Shown: piece by piece, positions 26,501-48,516 of the stretch | Numbering within the stretch: position 1 is the stretch's first letter | Layout: each line of letters starts with the position of its first letter | NCBI GenBank assembly: GCA_035292445.1 | Contig: DATDQB010000013.1 | Location: 82,132 to 146,131 of the forward strand | Direction: 5' to 3' | Origin: Candidatus Omnitrophota bacterium | GTDB lineage: Bacteria > Omnitrophota > Gorgyraeia > Zapsychrales > Zapsychraceae | Length of the DNA: 64,000 nt | Translations under genes and position numbers: made by a program | The notes under the pieces: generated by a model | Database searches by the model: none | The model's input: the letters and a program-made list of their open reading frames with translations, nothing else | Told to the model about the DNA's origin: nothing

Positions 26501-27587
26501 CATCAACGCCCCCTGAGAAATATTTACGCGGGATGATGTCTTTTGTCGCCGGGTCATAGTCTTCCCTAATAAAGTTATAGACGCCTTTCTTGAAGGCATC
26601 GAGGTATTGCTCATAGATCTTATTCTTGGCGTCCTTATCTTCAATATCAATGCCGCGGATCTTGTTTTTGTCCACGTAAACCTGGCCTAAAAGAGAATTT
26701 TTCAGGTTCATCTTGTACCACGTCGCCAAGATCATGGAACTGTAGATCTGGCGTAAACTGGCAAACGTCTTGCCTTCATTGACTTCCTTTTCGATCTCGG
26801 GGATAACAACATCCTTAAGAATCTGGGATTGGATGGAGCTCATTTCAGTCGTCAGTCGTCGGTCGTCAGTCGTCAGTAACTGATGACTGACGTCTGATGT
26901 CTGATGACTTAATGCCAAATAGTCTTCCTCCAGCATGACCTTCAAATGGCTTTCAACGACAAAAGCGGTGCCGTTATTTTCATACACCAGCGCGCGGTCA
27001 GGGACGATCCATACCTTATTAAAGGTATTCATCGGGATGTTGGTCGTGCCGAATTTCTCGTAGGCCTTATCTTTGACGCGTTGCCAGAATTCTTTGCCCA
27101 GCTCCTGATCGGGGTGGATCAAAGACGCCGTCAATTGTTTGAGGATATAATCCTGCGCTAAAAGGTCGCGGCCCATTTCGGTCGTACCAAAAGCTTGGGG
27201 AATGATACGGTCTTTCTCATAAGGGGAAAGATTTACCCAGAGTTCTTTTTCGGGAACGGTCAGGGAAGCCAAGAAGTATTTAACTAATCTATTCGCTTCT
27301 TCGCGAAGCTCTTCGCCCTCGAGGCTCGTATGGCCAGTATCAACAATAAAATTAAAATGTAGGGGATTAACGGGATCGATCGTGATGCCTTTGACCATGG
27401 CCGGCATAAAGCCAGGGCTTGGGGAAACCATCACCCCCGGAGCCGGTAAATTAAGATATGTGGGTACGCCTTGGGCGTAAACGGATGCAGGCGGCGTGAC
27501 AGAGCTAAAGATAAAGGTAAAGGCGATAAAAGCGGATAAACCTTTGTGGAATCGGGTATTTCTTCTTCGCTCGAGAAAGCTTATCAT
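14589..27587 (-). CDS. Giant multi-module secreted protein, paralog C (4332 aa): signal peptide, conserved N-module, unknown modules, malate synthase-like module, repeated linker modules, isocitrate lyase module, unknown and coiled-coil region, class I fructose-bisphosphate aldolase module, possible GlpX-like module, conserved C-module.
   Basis: A 13 kb uninterrupted ORF with AGGGGGA upstream of the ATG at 27587 and signal peptide MISFLERRRNTRFHKGLSAFIAFTFIFSSVTPPASVYAQ. Malate synthase motif: HHIKFSNDGRWDWGASAIRLAW. ICL signature: HIEDQAHGCKMCGHMSGKVL plus LIVARTDAESAEWITG and YYLGGWDAQ. Class I FBA motifs: GRGRNYFASDGSPSTG, LKGSAIKVSMVTSGD (Schiff-base Lys context) and IVFLSGGQTADQAARNLNAIVKEAKRVGAPWRYAASFSRA. 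The C-terminus is VGGIDLNPALLNLQIKRDGRGIPLP...GFIPVIINIAPINNMPMLLGI. Confidence 0.85.
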   Translation of the reverse strand: MISFLERRRNTRFHKGLSAFIAFTFIFSSVTPPASVYAQGVPTYLNLPAPGVMVSPSPGFMPAMVKGITIDPVNPLHFNFIVDTGHTSLEGEELREEANRLVKYFLASLTVPEKELWVNLSPYEKDRIIPQAFGTTEMGRDLLAQDYILKQLTASLIHPDQELGKEFWQRVKDKAYEKFGTTNIPMNTFNKVWIVPDRALVYENNGTAFVVESHLKVMLEEDYLALSHQTSDVSHQLLTTDDRRLTTEMSSIQSQILKDVVIPEIEKEVNEGKTFASLRQIYSSMILATWYKMNLKNSLLGQVYVDKNKIRGIDIEDKDAKNKIYEQYLDAFKKGVYNFIREDYDPATKDIIPRKYFSGGVDGRDMAMLVAEIEGDLGQFPEAVQQQVINASSPTGRFFDTDVDLLETIAGDSAQLAVDEASSRLADQAVITDPSTATDAERQQRLARRPEIWREEPPNADDLKELLEVAERHGITPITEGHLNTITIVRRRVHSAISQVNGRFNSVYREAQDLIDYQIYWSILDVVLGRIPTISDDYKRLKGYQDIIERVARSLASRIVVHPDFDKLPVFRREDVPANQGQIMLVKPKVQFQSSHAYIVPFIRNEALLFDDYSDKPDHIRLLTTSDAAMVAGVEDLDIREVLDQKGQAVDLSEFEGDVGSGKIINPRSQALIAHLMEKFGERQLELLKKRGERINAAERGENSYIPNMDDKVSDAYGNTLTVREILEGDWKVDEAPERLTKAGGILSGPWNLFFALSAFGSNVLDEVEKKFGISLKEKTDEEIIAIIEGNPAIAEYIEAMRPVRIFGDDEDAAGIDSDKRFAEHQIGADIINGRLKSVKHGDKNKIYRVLPRKYWPTVTKRPSGLQLWSRHESYKGMPVSMMMRDLAYYVEPNFEALEADPRQGIDIVVPKLEHWEEVKLFVETAIETKEFLGLKEEINLIFMHEVEEATLMLELMFWAGRHHIKFSNDGRWDWGASAIRLAWFLKKRVWPGLDKIGMKDKPFRPYTGLNLSASKKRGVHPEGGMWTGMTSRRYPDGAPMDPAADEIATTGFIGDKIDERKQGKLQAWAATPIAIPKENEIFRADVEEMEVAPPVYNEGLYADLLHVPEGNIARAEIYKNLYELLTYTLGYRKQGAAVAVDNLHNGGRTMFDLATAKKAQYWLWTLIKSGAKVQEGPDTGTIITWEYLSQIMDEVARNTQARYMESGFSDEDIAIAREINKSIITSKNMVLHESIVFNTTLDDRTLIDVKRKLKRFFAIHDNADNLYDRRILFAPFQLADAAMLTPEEEIRVESGVLTRAELLNLQERLQTVAAGYAPFNPQGEEASNSIIEEQLEKIANALRDGNYIDTAMAAGKSDDRAPELGPRVARRDSLTGEIVPEEPASIEHMTDMIASLRERDQKGTPKEGDAAMVAAQLEELKEMVVAFEDARIREEGVGLLEMIQTLQRAIRDSGGQNVPLTTAQEAIQTFYRILIPRSSGDVLSFRTLAAYDQDKIGPLQRKIKEVTETLERLVEKTVVSVAETDAAMAVTERYRDADIFEAMILSDYFSTRILLDRIEDYSVIEGMISLDFRAMRISNQFPKNAKRFVSQFDDLQLRDKVTRALDYLSLMEPERRRVLYRFRDRLQSEEASNSYILSKIADFDDSRRRSYYPESSILQNLDSVGFERLDKLRMDPHRIAELAYGETFDNMFRAVDAAAGDILFTQRKKMGHLGKRGGTSQEPIDAAMVGDESAQKEWFRAIDRLAQVRERIEKAKYEDGDIGDLPSLLEEERVLEETIDRTRAQWDDSIDNAMGAVRILEAVLTSEEGYRTADELRGAIAELEKRLGQIGNELVEYQDQVVIVEGLEGEKEQTELAIREIRERITSLTSAAAMAASDKDRAPELGPRFVRGDPLSGELVPEEPAASEKHMRGIIASLRERDQKGTPKEGDAAMAVDARAVAEEYFNWLLQSVAGFKAQYDRALPGGMYEAQVEADLDRAEKELAFLAALLGKEVSVDKLNRVDRKSAIEQLARLPDELAGLIKRWEKIKDKNDEEWARSRDPEERYNEVPTFGDVKGTVSSRLRDVWAMIEVGKERFTGALSPEVLARYEALVAQMNIPGPEGGMVARMGGDAAMVASLEERAQIMQERWNQQRAEGRWIKRVWSAEKVAAAQGPVLRTWSIANHMAEKFNGKLRRYFRDVKSIDTFGPSNELMAEAMAVSEILQAEPITKTKLLDVAYDYEVDALYNHLASLGFIDAETGVIQDSFSMMENVKQEYYERIDDAFKERSGIIFALLQQNLFKHIEGYYLGGWDAQMLRGKGDRARDQYDYLGILAARISKLNTWHAIYQEIARAQMTPEQRSLVRPVDFYVPIFVDFDEGHLKVQEMARRVLSMGEEETHIAAVHIEDQAHGCKMCGHMSGKVLDSTDHWIKTLLEARFEFDRMGLNTLIVARTDAESAEWITGHDDGRDQKFILGVTEADEAERLEEAVKALEKDLVAKKMPAEKIAATITRFRSDWQKYIPLIHDSKGRVQTYQDVITAANQSGLEASELQKVHNQWKIMANLLTIDEIVARTIAANQDKIGMTVEEWRAFVAAIPYERDVRFFDLVKAKAREIGIRLIDSSQIQLVDEAPEAFSGTINVLWDFQLTRSVEKRSRTIWMINSGMEMAIARSKSALPYTDISWFEQHHPHIGEVKQWSTALDAEARRLLFAEGWYDEILERFDQAFRDRIKTQVEKIIETYHNNRPVDPDSYSYALKALQELDLAHDDAVGLLDATTRIKANNTSPSFYWPLAKTEDGSRLMTPEERKAFLPEQGKYSQFNFITYGGSTFLHAATMQFLQGTDGKGGYLRDGMDGLAQWQEIGRKQKSGMSINPQVFAGNRGLEFMTSVAIGETAAISFEGGKGDTMKDRAGLKAKDDLMGEIHRQIAEKETALQHDLSVNELADLINKLRISLIGVRTRITQLRTRERSLKDGPEERSSIAQQIAQLTTDRHTIEGLLKRAISRIRPLEGADEVAFPLEDVSLDHIEERFAAPETFYPEPAQDIENELYILRAGQRAILLEIGQLSDELGSSELNEKRARINRLIGQGEQLLSGDSAMMAADRILEDLLAGRIMVKDAYDRLLSLGESSEDDVIALIVNSGLGLGLLQVMDEINRDPNPVGTVVDGEQEEVDDLDTGATQVLPPRPISEYPPEDEDHAMLTDVQKTLLRERVQSLTGRGRNYFASDGSPSTGNALLKRYGFKIVDAKAYPDADKVDGANYLLRERMRRMFYTAPGIQYVFGGIIVQDESVSYVDDEDKPLLATHVEGRGISIIHKTDRGIDDDTQSPRPSREGLDPEKLSKPKGLGIDNLRAIMDMIPTSHADKFRQTFTIDTDAGLPTQRNIEANMEMLAQHVLDVQLLGRVPTPEPEVLIKGSHDIEASAEANRRILKVYTEAASRLGVDLKGSAIKVSMVTSGDKAPKDTPEEVARATVAVHMDSLPPELGTIVFLSGGQTADQAARNLNAIVKEAKRVGAPWRYAASFSRASKETALTVLNGDFVNEQAAQNEFVRASFRIQAASLGVMDEYDALIERIGVEAFVARVDVYGRMVQVNIDNEQLGQMIRDFDAAMAAQPNKEEATRLRAIRDELPVILTTHTAAKLTALGLRGAYQKILDVVKSVSDTSEQRTQIALLFTQLHQTTQRGEFAEVAIMVLGKEGTIAKDELKRMQTAITDVVDGFAKRIFERTIKELGIIMMVRVSEGFGRDEVAESLKSNEVIMPNLIQHEVEAIKAAIDRGDEFYLSENGRYYPILDAIIDVVEGTNQFVTNSGNRSLEEAPENEAGANSDIVVGRGVRDLGNVPDGYVHQFITNVGEDADALRAAAVEVGGEKYHLYDPELYAAHPKEGILAYLKFLAAIRRQELSQVQEEIIVMNRKRETAFVRAIEEVKQEYGIQGVSVVQKTLQDGTVAHGLRATLTPALYEAATGRSYGVHKTVITVGGSAEGFMNLAIAGAAKYIGAVAGVRVYNAKMNKNAAGEELPDLSERYNFKLAEASELRVIRESYGDAGAILNGQKFFTEQDVKGDVVGIFTVIANDWVFGQTGTQATEGGQTSVVIKIYNVGNELKAEIFPVEVDHTIVSIDAAMTEQGDGAMLTPAEAWEIAEDLLEEMGDEELFGDRVGLLARLIHYLDGKELSTPLSEDAPDLYSKGDLTRATHINSARDFKVREIKFRRIIREFLEGQLIVNFPSEEEDVSSSAGIDRAVTAQETTPVGGIDLNPALLNLQIKRDGRGIPLPVEMQPLQNIHIDGFIPVIINIAPINNMPMLLGIADFIPDEPIEQAQDEEEKAPALSMRKFTLRDVLDRIAIFKG
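21780..21985 (-). repeat. Internal ~200-nt direct repeat within giant gene C, copy 1; the other copy is at 23340..23550 (~88% identical). Each encodes a duplicated ~65-aa linker segment.
   Basis: CCATCGCCGCGTCACCTTCTTTGGGAGTTCCCTTCTGATCTCTCTCCCTCAATGACGCTAT... occurs at both loci. The protein copies are AAMAASDKDRAPELGPRFVRGDPLSGELVPEEPAASEKHMRGIIASLRERDQKGTPKEGDAAMAVD and TAMAAGKSDDRAPELGPRVARRDSLTGEIVPEEPASIEHMTDMIASLRERDQKGTPKEGDAAMVAA. Confidence 0.8.
26845..26925 (-). repeat. Hairpin-forming short tandem repeat (TCAGTCGTCAG/CTGATGTCTGATG units) inside the N-module of gene C; a homologous insertion sits at 4050..4125 in gene A.
   Basis: Gene C has CAGTCGTCAGTCGTCGGTCGTCAGTCGTCAGTAACTGATGACTGACGTCTGATGTCTGATGACT. 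Gene A has GTCATCAGTCGTCGGTCATCAGTCGTCAG...CTGAAGACTGATGTCTGATGTCTGATGACTGAT. Both are imperfect inverted repeats built from 8-11-nt units. They encode SDVSHQLLTTDDRRLTTEMSS and SDISLQSTHENLTTDDRRLMTQ, which are absent from paralogs B and D at the same position. Confidence 0.7.
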
Positions 27588-27899: not shown

Positions 27900-30800
27900 T
27901 TACCTGTCAAGCCCTAATTCTTGCTGCATGTTCAGATCGCGTTCCACCCGCGTGATCACCGGCTCAAAGCCACCAAGGTTTAAATTTTCAATGGTGGAGG
28001 CTGCAATCGTCATTTGGACGCCGTTCCCCTCCCGCTGAACGACCAAATTCAACATAGCCATATTCAAATCAATACCACCCCTACTATCCCTGTTACCCGT
28101 ATCAAGCTGGGCCATGCCGCGCCCTATAACCTGAGCCATATTAGAAATTAGCCTCTGCTCTCTGATACGAGCCAATGAATCGGCAGAGATATTCGGTCTT
28201 TGCTGTAATACTGATAACAACCTTTCTTCTCCCCCATCAAAGGCTTGGGGATTATTTCTAGCTAAATCGCCAAAAGCGGTCACGATAGGTTCAAAATCAA
28301 TCGATTGAATACCACTGGCACTCATAACTTGTTCAGCCATGGGTCTAAAGACATCTTGGAAGACTTGGGGATTGGCTATATTTTGCGGCATCAATCTTAA
28401 GAGGGTATCCGACTGCTGCCTCGCGCTGGAAACCTCTCCAAATTGCCGAACCACAAAAGCGTTCGAAGCCTTTTCCGCGGTTTCAGGAGCGGCTCCTACT
28501 TCACGTAGGCCTGCTTGAAATTCGCTTAACGAACGTAGCGCTGCTGGATTTCTTTCGGCTAGTTGCGCAACCTGGCCGGGCAATGCCTGGATTTCCTCAG
28601 ATGTAAATCGAAGACCGAATTGAGACACCTCTGGCGCCCGTAAAGAGTCCCTATAATCATCTTCAAAGGCCTGCCCCATAGCCGCCTCTACAACAACACG
28701 GGCAAGTGTAGGGTTATAGCTCATCCGATCCCCAGCAGAAGAGGATTCAGCAACCGCCTGGTAAATCCGCCCAGACAGCCCTTCGCTATTATCTATAACA
28801 ATACCTGCCATTCTTTGGGCAAGCGGCTCAGCCACGTTCAAACTCCGTAATTCGGTCAAATAAGTGCTTCTTAAGCCATCGCGGTCTCCCAAGAGCTCAG
28901 GCTTGGCAAGGACATTCACTAATGCCTGCGCCGCCGGCTGGGCTTCCGATGGGTTAAGAGGGGTTGTCCGATTAAGCGCCTCGGCTACATTAATAACATT
29001 CGTTCGTTGATCTCCAACCAACGCAAATCGCGTCGAAGAACTGGCCAAATGGCTATCAACACCTTTGAATTCCTCCGCTTGCCCGGCCAAATTATTAATC
29101 CGGTCAATAACTTCTTTGGTAGCGACCCGGCTCGCCAAATTACGGACAGAATCTTCAGGCATCTGCGGCTGCGCGATCCTTAAGCCTTCGGTTATTTTTT
29201 GCTCGAGTTGATCCAATGACCCATATTCGCGTAAATTTTGCATTACAGGTGTAACAGCTGCAATTTCATCTTCATTAAAATTATCCGTCTGCAAAGCGGA
29301 CGTCACAATGCTTTGCATACGCGGCTGATTGACGGCGTAAAGAACAGGCATAACGGATATTTGCATATTGAATTGATAACGGCCCTGGGTTTGGTCGGCC
29401 ACTTCGCGCATGGTATCCAAATCCGAGGCAATTCTTGCGGCAGTAACAGCCGTCGGCCGGTCGATGCCCTCCCTTTCCAAGCCAGCGGTAATGGCCGCTT
29501 CGTATTGAATAGGCGTTGAGAAAGCTTCCGGTGATTGCGTCCTAAGGCGTGTTATGACTTGAGCTGTTGTTGCCGCTACAGATCGGGCTTGGGCAGGTTC
29601 GATTTCTCCTTCTCCTATTAATCTATTCGCTACGCTCGCGCTATACGCATTGCCGGCTAATTGTTGATTGGCAGCAATACCGCTGGCGACATCAACTAAT
29701 ACCGGCTGAGGCGTTGAGCGTTCAAAAACCGTTTGGGCTAAAGATGGCAGGCTCTTTTCGACCGTAGGGAGTGTTTGTTGGGAGATCCCTCGAGAGCTTA
29801 AAACACTCATAATCTCTTGAGTGGTACTTCGCGGCGCCCGGCGTAACGTGTCCCCCACTATACCCACCACTAAACTAATTTCTTCCTGCGGCACTCCTTG
29901 CTGCCCTAAAGAACGCCCAAGCTCGGCATTAAAAGAAGGAGCGTTTGTCCTAAGAACGGCAGCCATATTAGGCAAAGTGATGCCCATGTCTTGTGCGGCG
30001 TTTGGTTCCCGGTTTCCCAAGGCGAAAGAGACTCTTGCAACCCTTTCAGGGTTAGTCGTGGCTCTTTCCAACAGCCTATTGACCGAAGTCATCATAGCCT
30101 CATCAAGGCCGGCTTGGGCCAAGGGTACTTCTGCGGAAACCTGCGTTGTCCCTGCCCGAACGACTTGAGCCGCTCGATCCCCCGCAAAACCTCCCGAATA
30201 ATACCGCTTCGGCACCAAAGAAAATGTCTCCAAATCAAATTCTTTTGTCGTATACTCATAAGCTCCCTGCTGGAATGTCTCCAGATATTTATCAAAAATC
30301 TTTTCTTTAACCGCCCTGTCTTGTGTGTCTACGCCTTCAATTTTATTCTTATCGACATACACTTGGCTTAAAAAACTCTCTTTCAAATTTTGTTTATACC
30401 ACGTTGCCAGAATCATGGCATTGTAAATCTGCCTTAAATTGGCGAAATTCTCCCCTTCATTGACTTCTTTTTCAATTTCCGGAACAATGACTTCCCTGAC
30501 AACATTACTGGCAATAGCATTGATCTTCTTGACGTCATCTTCCTGCATCCGGTCCGTGCCGAATTTCTTATTATCCATATTTTCCTTTAATCCCAAATAA
30601 TCTTCCTCTAGCATCACTTTTAAATGGCTGTCCAAAACAATGGCGTTGTTACCTCTTTCTAAAACAACCGCTTGATCAGGGACAATCCAAATCTTGTTAA
30701 ATGTGTTCATCGGTATGTCAGAAGCGCCGTAGAGCTCGTTGGCTTTGCTTTGGACTTTTTGCCAGAACTCTTTTCCTAACTGATTTTCGGGATACATTAA

Positions 30801-31268
30801 AGATGCGGTGAGCTGCTTGAGAATATAATCCTGGGCTAAAAGGTCGCGCCCCATTTCTGTATACCCGAGATTTCTGGGAATAATCCGATCTTCTTCATAG
30901 GGAGAAAGATTAACCCATAACTCCTCTGAAGGAACGGTAAGAGCTGCCAGAAAATATTTGACAAGCTTATCAGCCTCTTCTTTCAGGGCATCTCCATCAA
31001 TATTCACATCACCCGTATCGATAATAAAATCGAATTTTAATGCATCGTCGGAGTTGACGGTTATCGCCTTAATAAGAGGTGGCGTGAATATTGGACTTTG
31101 GGTAAGCAATGTCCCCGGCGTGGGTAGCTGCAGGGCGCTGGAACCGACGGTTTGAGCGGAACTAAGATAGGGAGTTAAAACAAGGTGGCAGGAGAAACAA
31201 AGCACTGTTAAACAGCTTAAAAATCGAAAGCCTGGTTTGCTTCTTTTTCTTCGGGATAAAACTTCCAT
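27900..31268 (-). CDS. Giant-family paralog D (1122 aa), the minimal member: signal peptide, conserved N-module, ~700-aa low-complexity Ala/Gln/Ser/Thr-rich region, conserved C-module.
   Basis: GAGGA/GGTGGA lies upstream of the ATG at 31268. Signal peptide: MEVLSRRKRSKPGFRFLSCLTVLCFSCHLVLTPYLSSAQ. The N-module shares TVPSEELWVNLSPYEEDRIIP, TEMGRDLLAQDYILKQLTASLMYPE and PEIEKEVNEGENFANLRQIYNAMILATWYK with the other paralogs. The C-terminus is GGIDLNMAMLNLVVQREGNGVQMT...GGFEPVITRVERDL. Confidence 0.8.
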   Translation of the reverse strand: MEVLSRRKRSKPGFRFLSCLTVLCFSCHLVLTPYLSSAQTVGSSALQLPTPGTLLTQSPIFTPPLIKAITVNSDDALKFDFIIDTGDVNIDGDALKEEADKLVKYFLAALTVPSEELWVNLSPYEEDRIIPRNLGYTEMGRDLLAQDYILKQLTASLMYPENQLGKEFWQKVQSKANELYGASDIPMNTFNKIWIVPDQAVVLERGNNAIVLDSHLKVMLEEDYLGLKENMDNKKFGTDRMQEDDVKKINAIASNVVREVIVPEIEKEVNEGENFANLRQIYNAMILATWYKQNLKESFLSQVYVDKNKIEGVDTQDRAVKEKIFDKYLETFQQGAYEYTTKEFDLETFSLVPKRYYSGGFAGDRAAQVVRAGTTQVSAEVPLAQAGLDEAMMTSVNRLLERATTNPERVARVSFALGNREPNAAQDMGITLPNMAAVLRTNAPSFNAELGRSLGQQGVPQEEISLVVGIVGDTLRRAPRSTTQEIMSVLSSRGISQQTLPTVEKSLPSLAQTVFERSTPQPVLVDVASGIAANQQLAGNAYSASVANRLIGEGEIEPAQARSVAATTAQVITRLRTQSPEAFSTPIQYEAAITAGLEREGIDRPTAVTAARIASDLDTMREVADQTQGRYQFNMQISVMPVLYAVNQPRMQSIVTSALQTDNFNEDEIAAVTPVMQNLREYGSLDQLEQKITEGLRIAQPQMPEDSVRNLASRVATKEVIDRINNLAGQAEEFKGVDSHLASSSTRFALVGDQRTNVINVAEALNRTTPLNPSEAQPAAQALVNVLAKPELLGDRDGLRSTYLTELRSLNVAEPLAQRMAGIVIDNSEGLSGRIYQAVAESSSAGDRMSYNPTLARVVVEAAMGQAFEDDYRDSLRAPEVSQFGLRFTSEEIQALPGQVAQLAERNPAALRSLSEFQAGLREVGAAPETAEKASNAFVVRQFGEVSSARQQSDTLLRLMPQNIANPQVFQDVFRPMAEQVMSASGIQSIDFEPIVTAFGDLARNNPQAFDGGEERLLSVLQQRPNISADSLARIREQRLISNMAQVIGRGMAQLDTGNRDSRGGIDLNMAMLNLVVQREGNGVQMTIAASTIENLNLGGFEPVITRVERDLNMQQELGLDR

Positions 31269-40048: not shown

Positions 40049-41608
40049 TTATGGTGAAATCGTATTGACCGTCAGAAACACGATGATTTCCGTATTACGT
40101 AATTGCTCTCCCTCGCTTTGAAACGCAAAGCCCAGTATCGGTAAATCGCCCAATAAGGGAATTTTCCGCAAGGACTTGACAAATACTTCCTTTAGCATAC
40201 TTCCGATAACGATCGTCGCCCCGTTTTCCACCTCCATGATAACCGGTTCCTGGGCTTTTTCCTCGGCCAGGAGCCCTCGCTCTCTTTCCTCGCCATCGCC
40301 AATACCGGGTAAAACACGAGTTGCGCTTTTGATAATATCGGCCCCCATGGCAACGCTTCGTATAAGAATATTTTTTCTCGGTTTCTGCTGGCCATTTTCA
40401 TCGACAACGACATAAACGGAAGGCTGGATTTCAACGGTAATCGCGTTATCCTCCTGCCATTGGGGGCTCAAAACAAATTTAACATCCCCCTCTCTTAATT
40501 CAAATCCTACCTGCGTATGATCCTCTTCTACGCGCGCAATCTCCTGCACGGGAATAAGAAATTGGGCCTTACCGTTACTTTGGGTCATTAATTCATCGAC
40601 AAAAACCGTCTTAATGGCTCCGACGGTTTCCAGTGCCTCCGTTAAAATAACCAGATCTTCGGCCGAGATGGTCCCCATGCTGATTTTGTTCTCTTCCACG
40701 GCCAAGCGAGGGGTATCAAAGACATCGAAAGGCAGGCTTTGATAGGTGGAAACGATCGCTTCCCAATCGACTCCCGTTTCATGCTCGTCGCTTAAGATAA
40801 TCTGAATCACTTTGACATCGATCTGGATTTCTTTGACAGTATCCAAGATCCTGATCAATCGTTCGATCTCCTGGACATTCGAGAGCCTGTCAGTCACCAG
40901 CAAGCTATTTTTTTCCGCATTGACTTCCACCCTGCCGACTTTGGCCGTCAATTTCTCGGTGACCTTCTTGGCCACCTCGGCGGCGTCCGCATTTTGAAGA
41001 GCGATCTCTTTACTTTCCATAGGCACATCCAGCTCTTTAATGACCTTTTCCATCGATGCCAACGTGTCCGGGTGGTCTATCAGAATGAATGAATTGGTTT
41101 CTTCGTTATAGATAATCTTGCCAGAAGGGGTTTTCAGCTGATTTAAAGTGTCCATCAAATCCTGCGCTTTAAGATAGACCAGCGGGATAATACGTGTCTG
41201 GATTTTTTTACCGAATGCCTGACCGTACTGTTGCTCAAAAACGCTTTCAGGCATGACACGGATGCTTTTTTGCTCTTTGCCGTCAATCATCTCTGTTCCC
41301 TCGCTAAAAGCCAGATCGAGCTTCTCTAAGATAATTCTTAAGGCACTGAGCACATCAATATCTGTCAGGAAAATGTCCACCCGGCCCCGGATCTCTCCCT
41401 CAACCTTTATGGGATAAGAGCTCTTTTGGGAAATCTTTTGTAATACCTCGCTGATGTCGGCCCCTTCCGCTTCCAGGATTTCAATATAACCTCCGTCCCT
41501 TAACTCCAGCGTGACGGAAGGATCCTTCAGCTCTTGAGCTTTAAGAGGCCCTGGGCACCAGATAAAAACATTCATCAACAAAAATGTAACTAGATAAATA
41601 TTTCTCAT
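40049..41608 (-). CDS. Secretin-family outer-membrane channel (GspD/PilQ/CpaC-like), 519 aa from the internal Met
   Basis: Two Secretin_N-like repeats (IIPLVYLKAQDLMDTLNQL...NSFILIDHPDTLASMEKVIKELD and IALQNADAAEVAKKV...NSLLVTDRLSNVQEIERLIRILD) and a secretin C-domain ending KIPLLGDLPILGFAFQSEGEQLRNTEIIVFLTVNTI. The start is likely the internal MRNIYLVTFLLMNVF signal peptide. Confidence 0.7.
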   Translation of the reverse strand: MRNIYLVTFLLMNVFIWCPGPLKAQELKDPSVTLELRDGGYIEILEAEGADISEVLQKISQKSSYPIKVEGEIRGRVDIFLTDIDVLSALRIILEKLDLAFSEGTEMIDGKEQKSIRVMPESVFEQQYGQAFGKKIQTRIIPLVYLKAQDLMDTLNQLKTPSGKIIYNEETNSFILIDHPDTLASMEKVIKELDVPMESKEIALQNADAAEVAKKVTEKLTAKVGRVEVNAEKNSLLVTDRLSNVQEIERLIRILDTVKEIQIDVKVIQIILSDEHETGVDWEAIVSTYQSLPFDVFDTPRLAVEENKISMGTISAEDLVILTEALETVGAIKTVFVDELMTQSNGKAQFLIPVQEIARVEEDHTQVGFELREGDVKFVLSPQWQEDNAITVEIQPSVYVVVDENGQQKPRKNILIRSVAMGADIIKSATRVLPGIGDGEERERGLLAEEKAQEPVIMEVENGATIVIGSMLKEVFVKSLRKIPLLGDLPILGFAFQSEGEQLRNTEIIVFLTVNTISP

Positions 41609-41726
41609 AATAGTACTATTCAAATTAATATTTATGGAAAGTAGTGCCCCTATTTTTATACAAGGAAAGAAAACTGTCAAGCTTCATTTAAGAATCCCCC
41701 TTTAAAACGCCTTTAATCCGAGCGGT

Positions 41727-44015: not shown

Positions 44016-45263
44016 ATGCCCAACCCACTCCAAAAGATGACAAACCGCCGTGGCCAGCACGTCATGGAATATTCGATTGTTCTTATTATCACCATGGTGG
44101 CCATGATGATCGCCCTTCCTCATGTCATGCGAGGCTGGAACGCCAACATGAAAGGATGGGAAGACTCCGCCATTGATTCTCTCGAAGACCCCCTCTTGGA
44201 AGCGCCTGTTGTCACCTCATTGCCCGGTTGCGCCTGCAACTGGTCTATGCCCCTTGGTTGCGGCAATGGCTCTTGTTCTCGACAACAAATGGCTAGTCAA
44301 TGTATTTGTAATCCTCCTGGTTGCGGCTCAACAAATCTTACACTAAATTGCACGGAAGGAACTTATCAATGCCCTTGCGATTCGACATGCTGCGAACCTT
44401 GGCAGCCGACGGGCCTTTGCGGTGCCGCTGCCAATCCTCCTTGCCTGACCGGAGAGATGCGAAAAACACGCCTTTGTGGTTGCAACCCCACACCCCAATC
44501 GCAATGCCTGCCCGATCCGGCATGTACATTCGCCTGCCAAGGCATTAACGGAAATCCTCCCGGGATAGACCAGCCACTGAATTCGCAAGAATGCCCAAAC
44601 TATGAGAGTTGTCTGAGCCAAAATAGGAGGAATGTTTTGGTGGACGCTTGTAGCGGAGGGTGCGACCATTGCGAATATATTTGTACTGCTCCCTTTTTTG
44701 CCAATAATAACCAGTGCACAACCTGCCCCATCGGTAAAGTTTTTCAAGGGGTTTGTACTACCGGCCAATGCCAATACACGACAGCCTGTTCCGGAGGGAC
44801 GTGTCAAACAGTCGGCGCTCCGCCGCCGCTACCGCCACCTACATGCGGCACAAATGGCTTACCCTGTTGTACAGGTAACGTTTGCAATGCCGGTCTACTT
44901 TGCAGCAATGGGACTTGTATACCATGCGGCAATCCGAGTGAAGCCTGTTGTACTGGGAGCGTTTGTTTTTCTAGCACATGCATTAATGGTACCTGTGTAT
45001 GCGGCGATCCCGGCCAGTCGTGTTGTGCGGGCGGCGTTTGCAATAGCGGCTTAAGTTGTAATAGCAGTTATCTTTGTTCATGCGGCGACATTGATGAAGA
45101 TTGTTGTAGCGGTGGTACTTGTAACGGAGCTCTTCAATGTAACGGCGTTGGTAAATGCTGCCCCATCACTTATACCGGTTACTGCAGTATAAGCAGAAAT
45201 TGTTGCGAGGTCGATCTCGACTGCCCTCCATCCGAATCCTGCGTATATATCCCCCTTCCATAA
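44016..45263 (+). CDS. Secreted Cys-rich repeat protein with an Flp-type (class III) prepilin-like leader
   Basis: AGAGGGA lies 8 nt upstream of the ATG. The N-terminus RRGQHVMEYSIVLIITMVAMMIAL fits the Flp G/XXXXEY motif plus a hydrophobic helix. The remainder is ~15% Cys, with ~25-aa repeats (CCTGNVCNAGLLCSNGTCIPCG, CCTGSVCFSSTCINGTCVCG, CCAGGVCNSGLSCNSSYLCSCG, CCSGGTCNGALQCNGVGKCC) and a PPPLPPP linker. Confidence 0.7.
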   Translation: MPNPLQKMTNRRGQHVMEYSIVLIITMVAMMIALPHVMRGWNANMKGWEDSAIDSLEDPLLEAPVVTSLPGCACNWSMPLGCGNGSCSRQQMASQCICNPPGCGSTNLTLNCTEGTYQCPCDSTCCEPWQPTGLCGAAANPPCLTGEMRKTRLCGCNPTPQSQCLPDPACTFACQGINGNPPGIDQPLNSQECPNYESCLSQNRRNVLVDACSGGCDHCEYICTAPFFANNNQCTTCPIGKVFQGVCTTGQCQYTTACSGGTCQTVGAPPPLPPPTCGTNGLPCCTGNVCNAGLLCSNGTCIPCGNPSEACCTGSVCFSSTCINGTCVCGDPGQSCCAGGVCNSGLSCNSSYLCSCGDIDEDCCSGGTCNGALQCNGVGKCCPITYTGYCSISRNCCEVDLDCPPSESCVYIPLP

Positions 45264-45360: not shown

Positions 45361-45810
45361 TTATTGTGCCGGCCAAGCGCCGACCGTATACCAATATTCA
45401 TAACCCCATGGGTCGTCGCCATTCGTGTCACGAAAACACACTTCAACCTGAAACACTACCCTTCTGGAGGAGGAATCCATACCTGCGGAACCCATAATCC
45501 TTATACTTCCAAGGTCATAATGGTGGTCACCGTTATTAAACCTGAAATGCCACGCCCGTAATGCGACAATAGGTTCGCCAACCAAGGCTTGATTAAAATC
45601 CACTATCTCGGGCTGAGTAATACACGGCGTGTTGGACCCAACATTGGTCCAGGGACGATGCAGCTCTTTTACTACGGGCGCATAAGGGATGCAAACCGGT
45701 TGTTGGGCGCATGTTTCGCGGGGAATTAAATAATCTCCTATGGAGCACAAAATGGAGATGATCAAACAGGAAAGGATAATATAATAAACATTTTTATTCA
45801 ACTTCTTCAT
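45361..45810 (-). CDS. Small secreted protein, paralog 1 of a 3-gene tandem family
   Basis: Starts at the internal MKKLNKNVYYIILSCLIISILC signal. Shares C-x-x-A-Q-x-C after the signal, a central DHHYDLGSIRIMGSAG-type block and a C-terminal W-x-A-Q with the two neighbouring ORFs. Confidence 0.55.
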   Translation of the reverse strand: MKKLNKNVYYIILSCLIISILCSIGDYLIPRETCAQQPVCIPYAPVVKELHRPWTNVGSNTPCITQPEIVDFNQALVGEPIVALRAWHFRFNNGDHHYDLGSIRIMGSAGMDSSSRRVVFQVEVCFRDTNGDDPWGYEYWYTVGAWPAQ

Positions 45811-45817
45811 ATCCACT

Positions 45818-46243
45818 TTATTGCCACCTTGCGATAACATAATGGGAACTAAACGCCATATTATCGTCATCATTACCGTCGTTAAGGCAACCTTGGGAAG
45901 TAAAATATACCTGAGATTGGTTAGAACCGGGAGCGGACATAAAGACTCTCATCTCATCTAGGTGATGGTCATTGCTCGTCGAATACCTTACTTCAAATCC
46001 CGCAGATGCCAACCACACATCAAGGCCGATACCTCCGCCTGCGGACACATAGGTCGGATTTGGATTTGGGGAGGCACAGCCCCCACCACTGCTCCCGCCC
46101 ACTACGCCATATGTGGCCGTAGGTCGAATCGTTGTGCAAGATTGGGCTTGTACACAATCAGGGACCTGAAGCTCATAGGCAAGGCTTATGGCAAAGATTA
46201 AAAATAATGATAAGAGTAATATACCCAATTTACGAATTTTCAT
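45818..46243 (-). CDS. Small secreted protein, paralog 2
   Basis: MKIRKLGILLLSLFLIFAISLA signal; CVQAQSC; DHHLDEMRVFMSAPGS; C-terminal ARWQ. Confidence 0.55.
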   Translation of the reverse strand: MKIRKLGILLLSLFLIFAISLAYELQVPDCVQAQSCTTIRPTATYGVVGGSSGGGCASPNPNPTYVSAGGGIGLDVWLASAGFEVRYSTSNDHHLDEMRVFMSAPGSNQSQVYFTSQGCLNDGNDDDNMAFSSHYVIARWQ

Positions 46244-46288
46244 TCTTTATCGATCCTTCTTTACCTAAAAAAATACTTACCATTCATG

Positions 46289-46750
46289 TTATTGCCAAGC
46301 ATAAAGAACAAAATAGACCTGATATTCGTGCGCATTATCGACGTTATCGTCATGTAAACAAACGTCAATATTAAACATGATGGTGCTCCCAGACGCCCGC
46401 AAAGTGCTATAATCTATCATCGTCCTTGCCCTTTTTAAATGTTCATCACCGGAAGCGGTATAATGCAAATACCAGCCTGTTAATGCCAAAACATAATTTC
46501 TCGGATTATCGGTAAACGTGAATCCGGGCCAACTTTTGTTGACCGACGCAACGACGCAGGCCTGAGAAGAGTTCCAGGACGTCCGGCCCGTCCACCAGTA
46601 TTCCACATAAGGATACACGTTATAACACGTTTGGGCATTGACACAGCGCGGGGTTTTAAAATCATAGAAAAAATAGACGGCAGCGATGACAAGAATCGAC
46701 AAAACAAAAAAAAGAAAGGATTGCTTTTTTTGTTTTTTATTTATATCCAT
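46289..46750 (-). CDS. Small secreted protein, paralog 3
   Basis: N-terminal TM/signal (FLFFVLSILVIAAVYFF); CVNAQTC; DEHLKRARTMIDYSTLRASGS; C-terminal YAWQ. Confidence 0.55.
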   Translation of the reverse strand: MDINKKQKKQSFLFFVLSILVIAAVYFFYDFKTPRCVNAQTCYNVYPYVEYWWTGRTSWNSSQACVVASVNKSWPGFTFTDNPRNYVLALTGWYLHYTASGDEHLKRARTMIDYSTLRASGSTIMFNIDVCLHDDNVDNAHEYQVYFVLYAWQ

Positions 46751-46819: not shown

Positions 46820-47987
46820 ATGAAAAAGCATAACTTCAATTATTTAAACCAGTTGCAAGAAATTCTATTTCGACCCGTTGATCCTTCTTCCTTATCTCTT
46901 TTCAGGCTTTTTTTCGGTCTTATATTAGGCTGGTACGCTTTTCACCATATTGGGGCAAACTTGATCCACATCAAATATATCGATACCCATTTCCACTTTT
47001 CTTTATGGGGGCGGAGCATTTTGTGTCCCTGGATTGCCTGCGCAACCCCCAGCTGCGCCTTAAACCGATCCCTTTCTGGAACATCCTGATTCTCAGGGCC
47101 CAAATTGTCATTGTTTATTTCTTTGCCGGGATAGCCAAAATAAGCAAGGATTATTTGGACGGGCGCCAACTGCGCAGCCTTCTAATCAGCGATGATAGAT
47201 TGCCATTTCTGCAGTCCTTTGTATCGACAGAGTGGGGCATAACCTTATTTGTTTATAGCGGATTATTCATCGACTTACTCATCGGTTTTTTCTTGTGCTA
47301 CAAACCCACAAGGCCTTTAGCATTTTTTGTTGCCGTTATTTTTCATATAACCAACAAGTTGTTTTTCGACATCGATATTTTCCATCATTTCATGATCGCC
47401 ACCCTCATTCTTTTTGTCAAACCCGATGAACCCAGAAGGCTTTTGTATAAAATATTAAACTTTTTTAAAAAAACGGCTTGAAACCGCCCGTGTTTGAGGC
47501 CGGCTCGAAGAGCCCCCACAGATTATCCCGCCCTTTAATCAGCGCCTTCTTATTTTTATACCTGATGATCCAAGTCCTTCTGCCGTGGCGACATTTGCTC
47601 TATAAAGGCGATGTGAACTGGACGCGGGAGGGGCATCGCTTTGCATGGCGTTTAAAATCCAACGTTGTCGGCGGCGTCATGAGCATTATCGCCGTAGATC
47701 CTTCGACCGGTCAAATCACTCCCATTATTCCGTTCGATGACATCAGCCCGGAACAATACGTCCTCATGATTTATACCCCAGATATGTTATTGCAATATGT
47801 GCATTATCTTAAGGAAAAATTGGAAAAGCAGGGCATGAAAAATCCCATTATTAAAGTCGACGGCAAAATATCGGTCAACCGCAGGCCTTTCCATCCCTAC
47901 ATTGATAGAAATGTGAATCTTGCGGAAGAAAAATACAGGCTTTTTTCTTCCGCCGACTGGATCCTCCCCCCGCCGCCTGATCTTTAA
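46820..47987 (+). pseudogene. HTTM-domain (vitamin K-dependent gamma-carboxylase-like) membrane protein, split over three reading frames by two frameshifts at homopolymer runs
   Basis: The pieces 46820..47089, 47005..47481 and 47478..47987 lie in three different frames. Together they carry HTTM hallmarks: FRLFFGLILGWYAFHHI and NWTREGHRFAWRLKS. The frame changes coincide with GGGGG (~47018) and TTTTTTAAAAAAA (~47461-47473). Confidence 0.5.
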
Positions 47988-47989
47988 AT

Positions 47990-48024
47990 AAAAAAGGCAA
48001 CCTTTTTGGGGTTGCCTTTTTTAC
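47990..48024. terminator. Bidirectional rho-independent terminator between the convergent HTTM gene and the inositol-lipid operon
   Basis: AAAAAAGGCAACCTTTTTGGGGTTGCCTTTTTT: a GGCAACC/GGTTGCC stem with an A-run and a T-run. Confidence 0.65.
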
Positions 48025-48306: not shown

Positions 48307-48516
48307 TTATTTCTTCCTCATATATTTAAAAAAACTCCACAGGCAAATAAGCTGGGACGCAACAATGACGATGGCCACATATCCATGGAACCAAGAAACG
48401 AACGTTATAGTGGAGGCCATATGAACGACGAACAAAAAGGAAAAGAAAGCAAAGCACAAACCCCACAGCTCGGCTCGGGTGACAGGGTTGGGTGAGGGGT
48501 CCTGCGGTTTAGTCAT
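48307..48516 (-). CDS. Small membrane protein (69 aa, 2 TM helices)
   Basis: The ORF overlaps the MIPS stop by 8 nt. Helices: LWGLCFAFFSFLFVV and VAIVIVASQLICLWSFF. Confidence 0.35.
   Translation of the reverse strand: MTKPQDPSPNPVTRAELWGLCFAFFSFLFVVHMASTITFVSWFHGYVAIVIVASQLICLWSFFKYMRKK

What the first reader, a model, noticed from the sequence alone, without database searches (positions are those of the whole stretch)
46820..47987. HTTM-domain gene disrupted by two homopolymer frameshifts, in a neighbourhood of Cys-rich secreted proteins
The three overlapping ORFs 46820..47089, 47005..47481 and 47478..47987 together encode an HTTM (gamma-carboxylase-like) membrane domain: FRLFFGLILGWYAFHHI ... 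NWTREGHRFAWRLKS. Frame changes fall at a GGGGG run (~47018) and a T6A7 run (~47461-47473). Three explanations are possible: a pseudogene, homopolymer sequencing error, or programmed slippage. HTTM proteins are thought to modify secreted substrates, and the adjacent Cys-rich and small secreted genes are candidate partners.
Basis: seen in the sequence. Interest (0 to 1): 0.5.

Follow-up and report, generated by a model that had tools for sequence, protein, structure and literature searches.

The report
Broken vitamin-K-carboxylase-like gene (pseudogene)
This is a recently inactivated copy of a bacterial gene related to the vitamin K-dependent carboxylase, broken by a 223-base internal deletion and a one-base loss in an A-run. 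That is ordinary gene decay, although the gene sits in a small conserved cluster with three secreted-protein genes of unknown function.

Summary
The three ORFs exist and are pieces of one HTTM/VKGC-like gene. Pfam matches are HTTM positions 1-54, HTTM 119-258 and the VKGC lumenal domain.

The first frame change is not a slip at the GGGGG run. It is a deletion of about 223 nt (74 codons plus 1) at 46994-47004. It removes two to three hydrophobic helices and the NNH motif, which corresponds to human GGCX Asn159/His160, the residues that hold the substrate Glu.

Both lesions appear, 100% identical, in four separately assembled metagenome contigs. In addition, 54 homopolymers of 6 nt or more lie inside 37 kb of intact long ORFs in the same window. 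Sequencing error is therefore very unlikely. NCBI annotates two of the pieces as separate genes in a Candidatus Omnitrophota MAG. The retained parts show no extra decay, so inactivation was recent.

Context: the order Cys-rich protein, three small secreted paralogs, then a divergent HTTM gene recurs in related contigs (L001, L086, L134). One syntenic relative (L130) has the three small genes and no HTTM gene.

Verdict: an ordinary recent pseudogene. The conserved cluster is a modest lead.

The parts
46820..47002 (+). N-terminal remnant of the HTTM gene (frame 1: start codon, first TM helix, FRLFFG...YIDTHFHFS). After the deletion junction the frame runs on out of register to a stop at 47087-47089.
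   Evidence: Pfam HTTM positions 1-54, E 1e-6. Aligns to the N-termini of P0001-P0005. Family HMM positions 4-67.
46994..47011 (+). Deletion junction CACTTTTCTTTATGGGGG. About 223 nt (74 codons + 1 nt) are missing inside a T-rich tract. The GGGGG run (47007-47011) is ordinary coding sequence (M-G-A) in frame 2.
   Evidence: The spacing from FHFS to FFMG is 231 nt in four relatives and 8 nt here. Three-frame translation. Pfam positions 55-118 and family HMM positions 68-125 are absent.
46996..47481 (+). HTTM core remnant (frame 2; ORF called from ATG 47005). It retains the Lys218-equivalent (AGIAKISKD), the Asp263-equivalent and the Phe299-equivalent. It ends ...KILNFFKKTA*.
   Evidence: Pfam HTTM positions 119-258, E 1e-39. 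Mapping to human GGCX through P0002. NCBI HLF18338.1 'HTTM domain-containing protein'.
47461..47473 (+). T6A7 tract. The A7 run (47467-47473) carries a 1-nt loss that shifts the reading from frame 2 to frame 3.
   Evidence: Frame 3 opens at 47469 and frame 2 stops at 47479-81. Adding one A gives a continuous ...FFKKNGLKPPVFEAGSK.... Relatives read HFFKPS in frame at the same place.
47469..47987 (+). C-terminal remnant (frame 3): last TM helix plus the VKGC-type lumenal domain (NWTREGHRFAWRLKS ... DWILPPPPDL). Gene callers place the start at TTG 47478 or GTG 47490.
   Evidence: Pfam PF22777 positions 3-148 of 152, E 9e-40. NCBI HLF18339.1. Family HMM positions 291-448.
47989..48022 (.). Hairpin flanked by an A-tract and a T-tract between the convergent HTTM gene and the 74-aa membrane-protein gene. 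It looks like a bidirectional intrinsic terminator.
   Evidence: RNA fold -19.9 kcal/mol, z = -4.8, 0 of 200 shuffles as good.
46289..46750 (-). Small secreted/anchored paralog 1 (153 aa), divergent from the HTTM gene. It has an N-terminal hydrophobic helix, the motifs P-x-C-V-x-A-Q-x-C and C-x-x-D-x-N-x-D-D, and 4 Cys.
   Evidence: Alignments A2/A3. No Pfam hit. Profile search finds 229 relatives. Intact and identical in 4 assemblies.
45818..46243 (-). Small secreted paralog 2 (141 aa).
45361..45873 (-). Small secreted paralog 3. The longest ORF is 170 aa; gene callers give 149-169 aa.
44016..45263 (+). Cys-rich 415-aa protein (61 Cys, 14.7%) with an N-terminal hydrophobic segment and C-terminal CC-x-G-x-C repeats. 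It is convergent with the small-gene array.
   Evidence: No Pfam hit. Homolog at the same position in L086 (phmmer 3.7e-57). DNA repeats 44863-45139.

Best explanation
Positions 46820-47987 are a recently inactivated pseudogene of an HTTM/VKGC-like integral membrane enzyme (HTTM domain plus VKGC lumenal domain) in a Candidatus Omnitrophota genome.

Two independent lesions broke it:
1. A deletion of about 223 nt (3n+1) inside a T-rich tract at 46994-47004. This is probably replication slippage or microhomology-mediated deletion. It removes about 74 codons, covering two to three hydrophobic helices and the conserved 'EKAYFNNHYYL' motif, and puts the rest of the gene out of frame.
2. The loss of one A in the A7 run at 47467-47473, which separates the HTTM core from the lumenal domain.

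Translation from the original start yields an 89-residue product. No catalytically competent enzyme can be made.

The gene belonged to a lineage-conserved cluster: a Cys-rich protein, three small secreted paralogs, and a divergent HTTM gene. The other members of the cluster remain intact.

Shown: the lesions, their reproducibility, and the loss of conserved residues. Inferred: the deletion mechanism, the recency, and the loss of function.
For: - Pfam matches cover HTTM 1-54 and 119-258 plus the lumenal domain. Positions 55-118 are missing.
- The closest homologs (P0001-P0004, 450-464 aa, 53-56% identity) carry about 73 extra residues exactly there.
- The spacing is 231 nt in four relatives and 8 nt here.
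- Frame 2 reads 'LFFMGAEHFVSLD' from 46996, which matches the family.
- The deleted stretch maps to human GGCX residues ~101-171 and includes Asn159/His160. These residues hold the substrate Glu carboxylate, and N159A and H160A impair carboxylation (PMC12647623).
- Ten family-conserved columns are deleted.
- The second shift is confined to the ~10-nt span 47469-47478, which begins inside the A7 run. One added A restores the frame.
- Window 36289-56750 is 100.000% identical, without gaps, to contigs from ENA ERZ27254865, ENA ERZ27254861, Logan SRR3989295 and JGI 3300002124.
- All database copies of the pieces are short, 140-169 aa.
- 54 homopolymers of 6 nt or more (12 of 7 nt or more) lie in 37 kb of intact ORFs in the window, including 4332-aa and 2477-aa ORFs.
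- The retained parts differ from family consensus at 9 of 64 conserved columns. Intact clade mates differ at 9-13, so there is no extra decay.
- A syntenic relative (L130) has INO1, the 72-aa membrane protein and the three small genes with no HTTM gene at all. The gene is therefore dispensable in this lineage.
Against: - No reads were available, so a minority intact allele in the population cannot be excluded.
- The four assemblies may partly share read sets or come from one site.
- Pieces 2 and 3 are free of internal stops and still score E about 1e-39, which would also fit continued selection on the pieces.
- The stop of piece 2 overlaps a TTG start of piece 3 (cTTGAa), so coupled translation of the lumenal piece is conceivable.
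- A distant homolog (P0051, 373 aa, seen in two assemblies) lacks the same segment in frame. A form of the protein without that segment may therefore be tolerated in some lineages.
Confidence: 0.85

Rival explanations
1. Sequencing or assembly artefact: the real genome carries an intact ~460-aa gene.
For: One lesion sits in a homopolymer (A7), a classic site of indel error. Metagenome assemblies can collapse sequence between short repeats.
Against: Four contigs from different sources and assemblers (two ENA k141 contigs, one Logan, one JGI) are 100% identical over 10-20 kb, including both lesions. None of 54 homopolymers of 6 nt or more in 37 kb of long ORFs is frameshifted. The larger lesion is a 223-nt deletion, not a homopolymer miscount. 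The contig names suggest short-read k-mer assemblies, in which 6-7-nt homopolymers are called reliably (inference).
Confidence: 0.04
2. Programmed recoding: two -1 ribosomal or transcriptional slips (at G5 47007-47011 and A7 47467-47473) produce a full-length protein at a low, regulated level.
For: Both frame overlaps contain a homopolymer on which a P-site tRNA (Gly on GGG, Lys on AAA) could re-pair in the -1 frame. A-runs are known slippage sites (established knowledge).
Against: All relatives are in frame at both positions. At the second junction two of them (the L001 copies) read CAT TTT TTC AAA CCG in frame, so there is no conserved recoding signal. Neither site is a canonical X XXY YYZ heptamer in phase (sequence). 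The product would still lack about 74 conserved residues, including the Asn/His substrate site. Two sequential low-efficiency events would give a negligible yield.
Confidence: 0.02
3. Functional remnant: the lesions created separately expressed pieces. In particular, the lumenal-domain protein (47478/47490..47987, with its own TM helix) still works, perhaps with an HTTM protein encoded elsewhere in the genome.
For: Natural systems exist in which an HTTM membrane protein and a TM-anchored domain that structurally corresponds to the lumenal region are separate adjacent genes (the DUF5819 pair, bioRxiv 10.64898/2026.08.19.745780). Piece 3 has an overlapping stop/start (TTGA) and no internal stops. 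The pieces show no excess substitutions. Tandem HTTM paralogs occur in relatives.
Against: No second HTTM copy exists in the 64-kb window. No Shine-Dalgarno-like sequence precedes either internal start (sequence). Piece 2 starts inside the out-of-frame tail of piece 1. The lack of extra decay is equally expected for a very recent pseudogene. L130 shows the whole gene can be lost.
Confidence: 0.07
4. Phase-variable (contingency) switch: reversible changes in the length of the A7/T6 tract turn the gene on and off.
For: The tract lies in a gene next to secreted or surface proteins, which is the typical setting for contingency loci (established knowledge).
Against: The 223-nt deletion is irreversible. 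The tract length is identical in all four assemblies. A7 is shorter than typical phase-variable tracts (established knowledge).
Confidence: 0.02

Closest known systems
[quoted passage not shown]
   Same: The intact clade mate P0002 aligns over residues 11-461 with human GGCX 53-509 (E 5e-55). It has the same HTTM domain plus lumenal domain architecture. The equivalents of Lys218, Asp263 and Phe299 are retained in the window's remnant, and the equivalents of Asn159/His160 are present in intact relatives.
   Different: The window copy lacks the segment equivalent to human residues ~101-171 and is frameshifted twice. The bacterial clade has F/Y in place of Trp223 and His in place of Tyr395. It also lacks the large C-terminal region of the 758-aa human enzyme. 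No Gla-type substrate with a propeptide and conserved Glu residues is evident nearby.
Bacterial VKGC homologues with other chemistry: MloH of malonomycin biosynthesis (carboxylates an aspartyl residue of a PKS-NRPS intermediate; Law et al. 2018 as cited) and the Leptospira VKGC orthologue (epoxidase without Glu carboxylation; my own recollection of Rishavy et al. 2005, not checked here)
   Same: These are HTTM plus lumenal-type enzymes in bacteria that need not act on Glu in proteins.
   Different: No PKS/NRPS genes flank the window gene. The neighbours here are small secreted proteins.
HTTM-DCC membrane protein plus a separate DUF5819 protein (bioRxiv 10.64898/2026.08.19.745780)
   Same: An HTTM protein is encoded next to a small protein with one N-terminal TM helix and a domain of about 110-160 aa. 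The small paralogs here have this architecture.
   Different: The small proteins here have no DUF5819 or any other Pfam hit. The HTTM genes of this clade already carry their own lumenal domain and have no DCC domain.
Ordinary bacterial pseudogenes formed by deletion and homopolymer indel
   Same: There is an internal out-of-frame deletion plus a single-base loss in an A-run. The neighbouring genes are intact, and the gene is completely absent in a syntenic relative.
   Different: Nothing distinguishes it from this class.

Membership tests
HTTM / VKGC-like family (Pfam PF05090 + PF22777) | Significant match to the HTTM domain profile | tested here: met
   Piece 1 scores 28.9 bits (cut-off 27.7), piece 2 scores 136.8 bits, and the repaired protein scores 154.7 bits.
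HTTM / VKGC-like family (Pfam PF05090 + PF22777) | Complete HTTM domain (all 259 profile positions, all TM helices) | tested here: not met
   Profile positions 55-118 are absent. About 74 residues are missing relative to P0001-P0005.
HTTM / VKGC-like family (Pfam PF05090 + PF22777) | VKGC lumenal domain C-terminal to HTTM | tested here: met
   PF22777 positions 3-148 of 152, E 9e-40, but in a different reading frame.
Functional vitamin K-dependent carboxylase | Catalytic base equivalent to human Lys218 | tested here: met
   The K in AGIAKISKD aligns with Lys218 through P0002 K178.
Functional vitamin K-dependent carboxylase | Substrate-Glu binding residues equivalent to human Asn159/His160 | tested here: not met
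   The NNH motif (P0002 residues 118-120) lies inside the deleted stretch. Its role is described in PMC12647623.
Functional vitamin K-dependent carboxylase | Single uninterrupted reading frame | tested here: not met
   Three frames are used. There are stops at 47087-89 and 47479-81.
Functional vitamin K-dependent carboxylase | Vitamin K (menaquinone)-dependent epoxidase or carboxylase activity | not testable with these tools
   This is a biochemical assay. No member of this bacterial clade has been characterised, as far as the searches show.
Programmed -1 frameshift gene | Slippery site and frame change conserved in homologs | tested here: not met
   Homologs are in frame at both positions.
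Pseudogene | Disabling lesions relative to intact homologs, reproducible in independent sequence data | tested here: met
   The deletion and the frameshift are identical in four assemblies.
Pseudogene | Relaxed selection (excess substitutions at conserved sites) | tested here: inconclusive
   9 of 64 conserved columns are substituted, the same as in intact clade mates. This is compatible with very recent inactivation. No close strains were available for dN/dS.

The most novel reading that the evidence does not exclude
The conserved Omnitrophota cluster (Cys-rich pilin-like protein, three fast-evolving small secreted paralogs built on an undescribed ~70-aa beta-rich module, and one to three HTTM/VKGC-like genes) may be a bacterial quinone-dependent protein-modification system. 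In this reading the small proteins are the substrates, and the window captures a strain that has just lost the modifying enzyme. It would be a first natural protein-substrate set for a bacterial VKGC homologue.
Probability: 0.15. Interest if true: 0.55.

Novelty: new member of a known kind. Interest (0 to 1): 0.2.

Why it matters
The broken gene on its own matters little. It is a routine pseudogene that NCBI has annotated as two separate 'HTTM domain-containing' proteins, and that annotation should be corrected.

The comparative context is more useful. The function of bacterial VKGC/HTTM homologues is largely unknown. The repeated pairing of this clade with a triplet of small secreted proteins that lack any Pfam hit gives a concrete, testable substrate hypothesis. 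There is also a natural loss series for comparison: HTTM intact in L001 and L134, broken in the window, absent in L130.

Tried and rejected
- Scanning genome contigs with the HTTM alignment did not find the window's genome. The best hit was 42% identical (Caldilineaceae). None of the 80 named-genome loci carries the small-protein family.
- The metagenome scan with the same alignment added no further cluster members.
- The word-indexed search with the small-protein profile found only 4 proteins. The full HMMER search was needed to find 229.
- The AlphaFold model of small paralog 1 was too poor (pLDDT 59.7) for a fold search, so none was run.
- By eye the N-terminus of the Cys-rich protein looks like a Flp/TadE prepilin motif. 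Pfam gave no hit even at E <= 10, so the resemblance is not claimed.
- The consensus terminator scan missed the hairpin after the gene. Folding showed it.
- No meaningful direct or inverted repeats flank the window's deletion.
- A literature search for cryo-EM/K218 terms returned nothing. A second search did return relevant papers.
- The exact look-up of three window proteins failed, probably because of start-codon or translation details.

Full report
**Observation.** The three overlapping + strand ORFs exist at the stated coordinates, in three different frames. Pfam assigns piece 1 (46820..47089) to HTTM PF05090 positions 1-54 (E 1e-6). Piece 2 (47005..47481) matches HTTM positions 119-258 (E 1e-39). 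Piece 3 (47478..47987) matches the VKGC lumenal domain PF22777 positions 3-148 of 152 (E 9e-40). A family HMM built here gives the same picture: positions 4-67, 126-283 and 291-448 of 452. It finds no other HTTM copy in the 64-kb window. The gene identity is therefore confirmed. The gap in profile coverage was the first sign that the lesions are not two simple frameshifts.

**Junction 1 is a deletion, not a G-run slip.** The closest homologs in a 5.8-billion-protein collection are 450-464 aa long and 53-56% identical. Aligned to the conceptually joined window protein, they carry about 73 extra residues between '...FHFS' and 'FFMGAH...'.

Reading frame 2 upstream of its ATG gives 'PLFFMGAEHFVSLD'. 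This matches the homologs' 'FLMFFMGAHRCASMD' from position 46996. The GGGGG run is at 47007-47011, not about 47018. In frame 2 it simply encodes the conserved Met-Gly-Ala, so no indel is needed there.

In four relatives (L087/P0001, both L001 copies, L086/P0005) the first codon of FHFS and the first codon of FFMG are exactly 231 nt apart. In the window they are 8 nt apart (46991 and 46999). The window has therefore lost about 223 nt, which is 74 codons plus 1 nt. The junction lies in the T-rich string CACTTTTCTTTATGGGGG. Both flanks in the relatives are T/C-rich (TTTTCTCTTTTT and TTTTTTATG). Slippage between short T-rich repeats is a plausible cause, but this is inferred, not shown.

**What the deletion removes.** In P0002 the missing stretch is residues 59-132. 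It covers two hydrophobic helices and half of a third, plus the motif EKAYFNNHYYL.

A phmmer alignment of P0002 to human GGCX structures (E 5e-55) places the stretch at human residues ~101-171, with P0002 His120 aligned to human His160. In the cryo-EM work on human GGCX, Asn159 and His160 hydrogen-bond the carboxylate of the substrate Glu, and N159A and H160A impair carboxylation (PMC12647623).

The Lys218 equivalent (the catalytic base) is retained in piece 2 as the K of AGIAKISKD. The Asp263 and Phe299 equivalents are also retained. Ten columns conserved in at least 85% of 69 family members fall in the deletion. Even if the frames were rejoined, the product would lack part of the active site.

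**Junction 2 is a 1-nt loss in A7.** Frame 3 opens at 47469 and frame 2 stops at 47479-81. The shift is therefore confined to the ~10-nt span 47469-47478, which begins inside the A7 run at 47467-47473 (T6 is at 47461-47466). Adding one A gives a continuous ...KILNFFKKNGLKPPVFEAGSK.... The two L001 copies (P0002, P0003) read ...KILHFFKPS... in frame at the same place.

**Artefact or real?** The window's 153-aa neighbour protein was found on six contigs. Four were fetched: ENA ERZ27254865 k141_4381063, ENA ERZ27254861 k141_2268053 (149 kb), Logan SRR3989295_166365 and JGI 3300002124 C687J26631_10001161. All four are 100.000% identical to the window, without gaps, over 10.6-20.5 kb, including both lesions.

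Every database copy of the pieces is a short protein of 140-169 aa. NCBI lists pieces 2 and 3 as HLF18338.1 and HLF18339.1, 'HTTM domain-containing protein [Candidatus Omnitrophota bacterium]'. This also identifies the organism.

Within the window, 37 kb of intact long ORFs (including ORFs of 4332 and 2477 aa) contain 54 homopolymers of 6 nt or more and 12 of 7 nt or more, with no frameshift. A homopolymer miscall at exactly this site is therefore unlikely. The 223-nt deletion cannot be a homopolymer error at all.

Caveats: I could not inspect reads, and the four assemblies may share a sampling site or some read sets.

**Recency.** At the 64 family-conserved columns that remain, the window differs at 9. 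Its intact clade mates P0001-P0004 differ at 9-13. There are no internal stops in the pieces. The terminator-like hairpin after the gene is intact (47989-48022, -19.9 kcal/mol, z = -4.8). This fits a very recent inactivation. It would also fit continued use of the pieces, which I keep as a minor rival.

**Recoding.** Two -1 events would be needed. A P-site slip is mechanically possible on GGG and on AAA. However, neither site is a canonical heptamer in phase, relatives are in frame at both positions, and the product would still lack the deleted segment. I rate this at about 2%.

**Neighbourhood.** Left of the gene, on the opposite strand, lie three paralogous genes of about 140-170 aa (46289..46750, 45818..46243, 45361..45873). 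Beyond them is a 415-aa protein with 61 Cys (44016..45263, + strand). Housekeeping genes flank this block: an RsmB/F methyltransferase on one side; myo-inositol-1-phosphate synthase, a CDP-alcohol phosphatidyltransferase and HemB on the other.

The small proteins share an N-terminal hydrophobic helix, a P-x-C-V-x-A-Q-x-C motif, four conserved Cys and a C-x-x-D-x-N-x-D-D motif. They have no invariant Glu and no Pfam hit.

The same arrangement recurs elsewhere:
- **L001:** three small genes, divergent from two tandem HTTM genes plus a third partial copy.
- **L086:** RsmF (50% identical to the window's), a Cys-rich homolog, three small genes and HTTM P0005.
- **L134:** an intact HTTM N-terminus, divergent from two small genes.
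- **L130:** INO1 (94% identical over its last 51 residues), the 72-aa membrane protein and the three small genes, with only 146 nt where the HTTM gene would be.

HTTM is thus adjacent in 4 of 5 loci where that side is visible. It is broken in one locus (the window) and absent in another.

None of 122 more distant HTTM loci from named genomes and metagenomes carries the small-protein family. The association is therefore specific to this lineage and may partly reflect inherited gene order.

A full HMMER search finds 229 relatives of the small proteins. Many are larger proteins with two or three copies of the C-terminal ~70-residue module, and none of those scanned has a Pfam annotation for that module. 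An AlphaFold model was of low confidence (pLDDT 59.7; one helix plus about six strands) and was not used further.

**An unexplained point.** One distant homolog, P0051 (373 aa, 36-38% identical, seen in two assemblies in an unrelated context), lacks essentially the same segment in frame. Either this part of the gene is a recurrent deletion target, or a form of the protein without it can be tolerated. This does not rescue the window's copy, whose deletion is out of frame, but it tempers the claim that the segment is indispensable for every function of the family.

**Comparison with known systems.** By sequence, the gene is a member of the HTTM/VKGC family and the closest solved relative is human GGCX. 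Characterised or discussed bacterial relatives include MloH in malonomycin biosynthesis and HTTM-DCC/DUF5819 pairs (also mentioned). The Leptospira orthologue is from my own recollection. None of them is linked to a triplet of small secreted proteins.

**Verdict.** The window copy fails the tests for a functional carboxylase: the domain is incomplete, the Asn/His site is missing and there is no single reading frame. It is best filed as a pseudogene of this family. I rate this an ordinary, recently formed pseudogene at confidence about 0.85, and interest is low. The only lead worth keeping is the conserved HTTM / small-secreted-protein cluster in Omnitrophota.

Noticed in passing
window 14589-27587 (-): An intact 4331-aa ORF combines a malate synthase TIM barrel (aa 860-1088), an isocitrate lyase domain (aa 2281-2472) and a class-I fructose-bisphosphate aldolase domain (aa 3246-3545) in one polypeptide. 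This is a giant multi-enzyme fusion, and most of its length has no Pfam hit.
   Followed up: no
window 5097-12530 (-): A 2476-aa ORF carries UDP-glucose pyrophosphorylase, phosphoglucomutase/phosphomannomutase domains I/II and response-regulator receiver domains. The neighbouring 1121-aa ORF at 27900-31268 (-) has no Pfam hit.
   Followed up: no
window 44016-45263 (+): A 415-aa protein with 61 Cys (14.7%). Its N-terminus, RRGQHVMEYSIVLIITMV, looks by eye like a Flp/TadE-type prepilin motif (G/xxxxEY), but there is no Pfam hit even at E <= 10. The C-terminus holds repeated CC-x-G-x-C-N-x-G units (DNA repeats 44863-45139). A homolog sits at the same position in L086. A secretin gene lies at 40049-41680 (-).
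   Followed up: partly
window 45361-46750 (-); P0099-P0244: The three small paralogs belong to an undescribed family with 229 relatives at E <= 1e-3. Its C-terminal ~70-aa module (VALTGW...D-x-H...C-x-x-D-x-N-x-D-D...AW) also occurs two or three times in proteins of 280-1060 aa, some of which also have Sortilin/BNR or transglutaminase-like hits. The module has no Pfam model. The D-x-N-x-D-D motif resembles a calcium-binding loop (my impression, untested).
   Followed up: partly
L086 5878-6274: A perfect 39-nt inverted repeat (5878-5916 / 6236-6274, with the second arm at the contig end) brackets the 3' end of the HTTM gene, which lies in inverted orientation. As assembled, P0005 is truncated at 417 aa. 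Flipping the segment would restore a full C-terminus. This is either an invertible segment or an assembly artefact.
   Followed up: partly
L001 5041-5616: A third tandem HTTM copy jumps from 'IVYFFSG' directly to 'NINWTREGERF', with about 150 residues missing in frame, just before the contig end. This is either a deletion between paralogs or a chimeric contig end.
   Followed up: no
L135 5609-6730 / L136 3470-4591 (P0051): A distant single-copy HTTM gene (373 aa) in two assemblies lacks, in frame, nearly the same segment that is deleted in the window. This could be a recurrent deletion or a viable short form.
   Followed up: partly
L130 1-1995: A syntenic relative has INO1, the 72-aa membrane protein, a hairpin and three small paralogs, with no HTTM gene in between. 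It also has no counterpart of the window's 69-aa ORF at 48307-48516.
   Followed up: yes
window 47005-47987 (NCBI HLF18338.1 / HLF18339.1): The public annotation lists the two larger fragments as two separate 'HTTM domain-containing protein' genes rather than as one pseudogene.
   Followed up: yes
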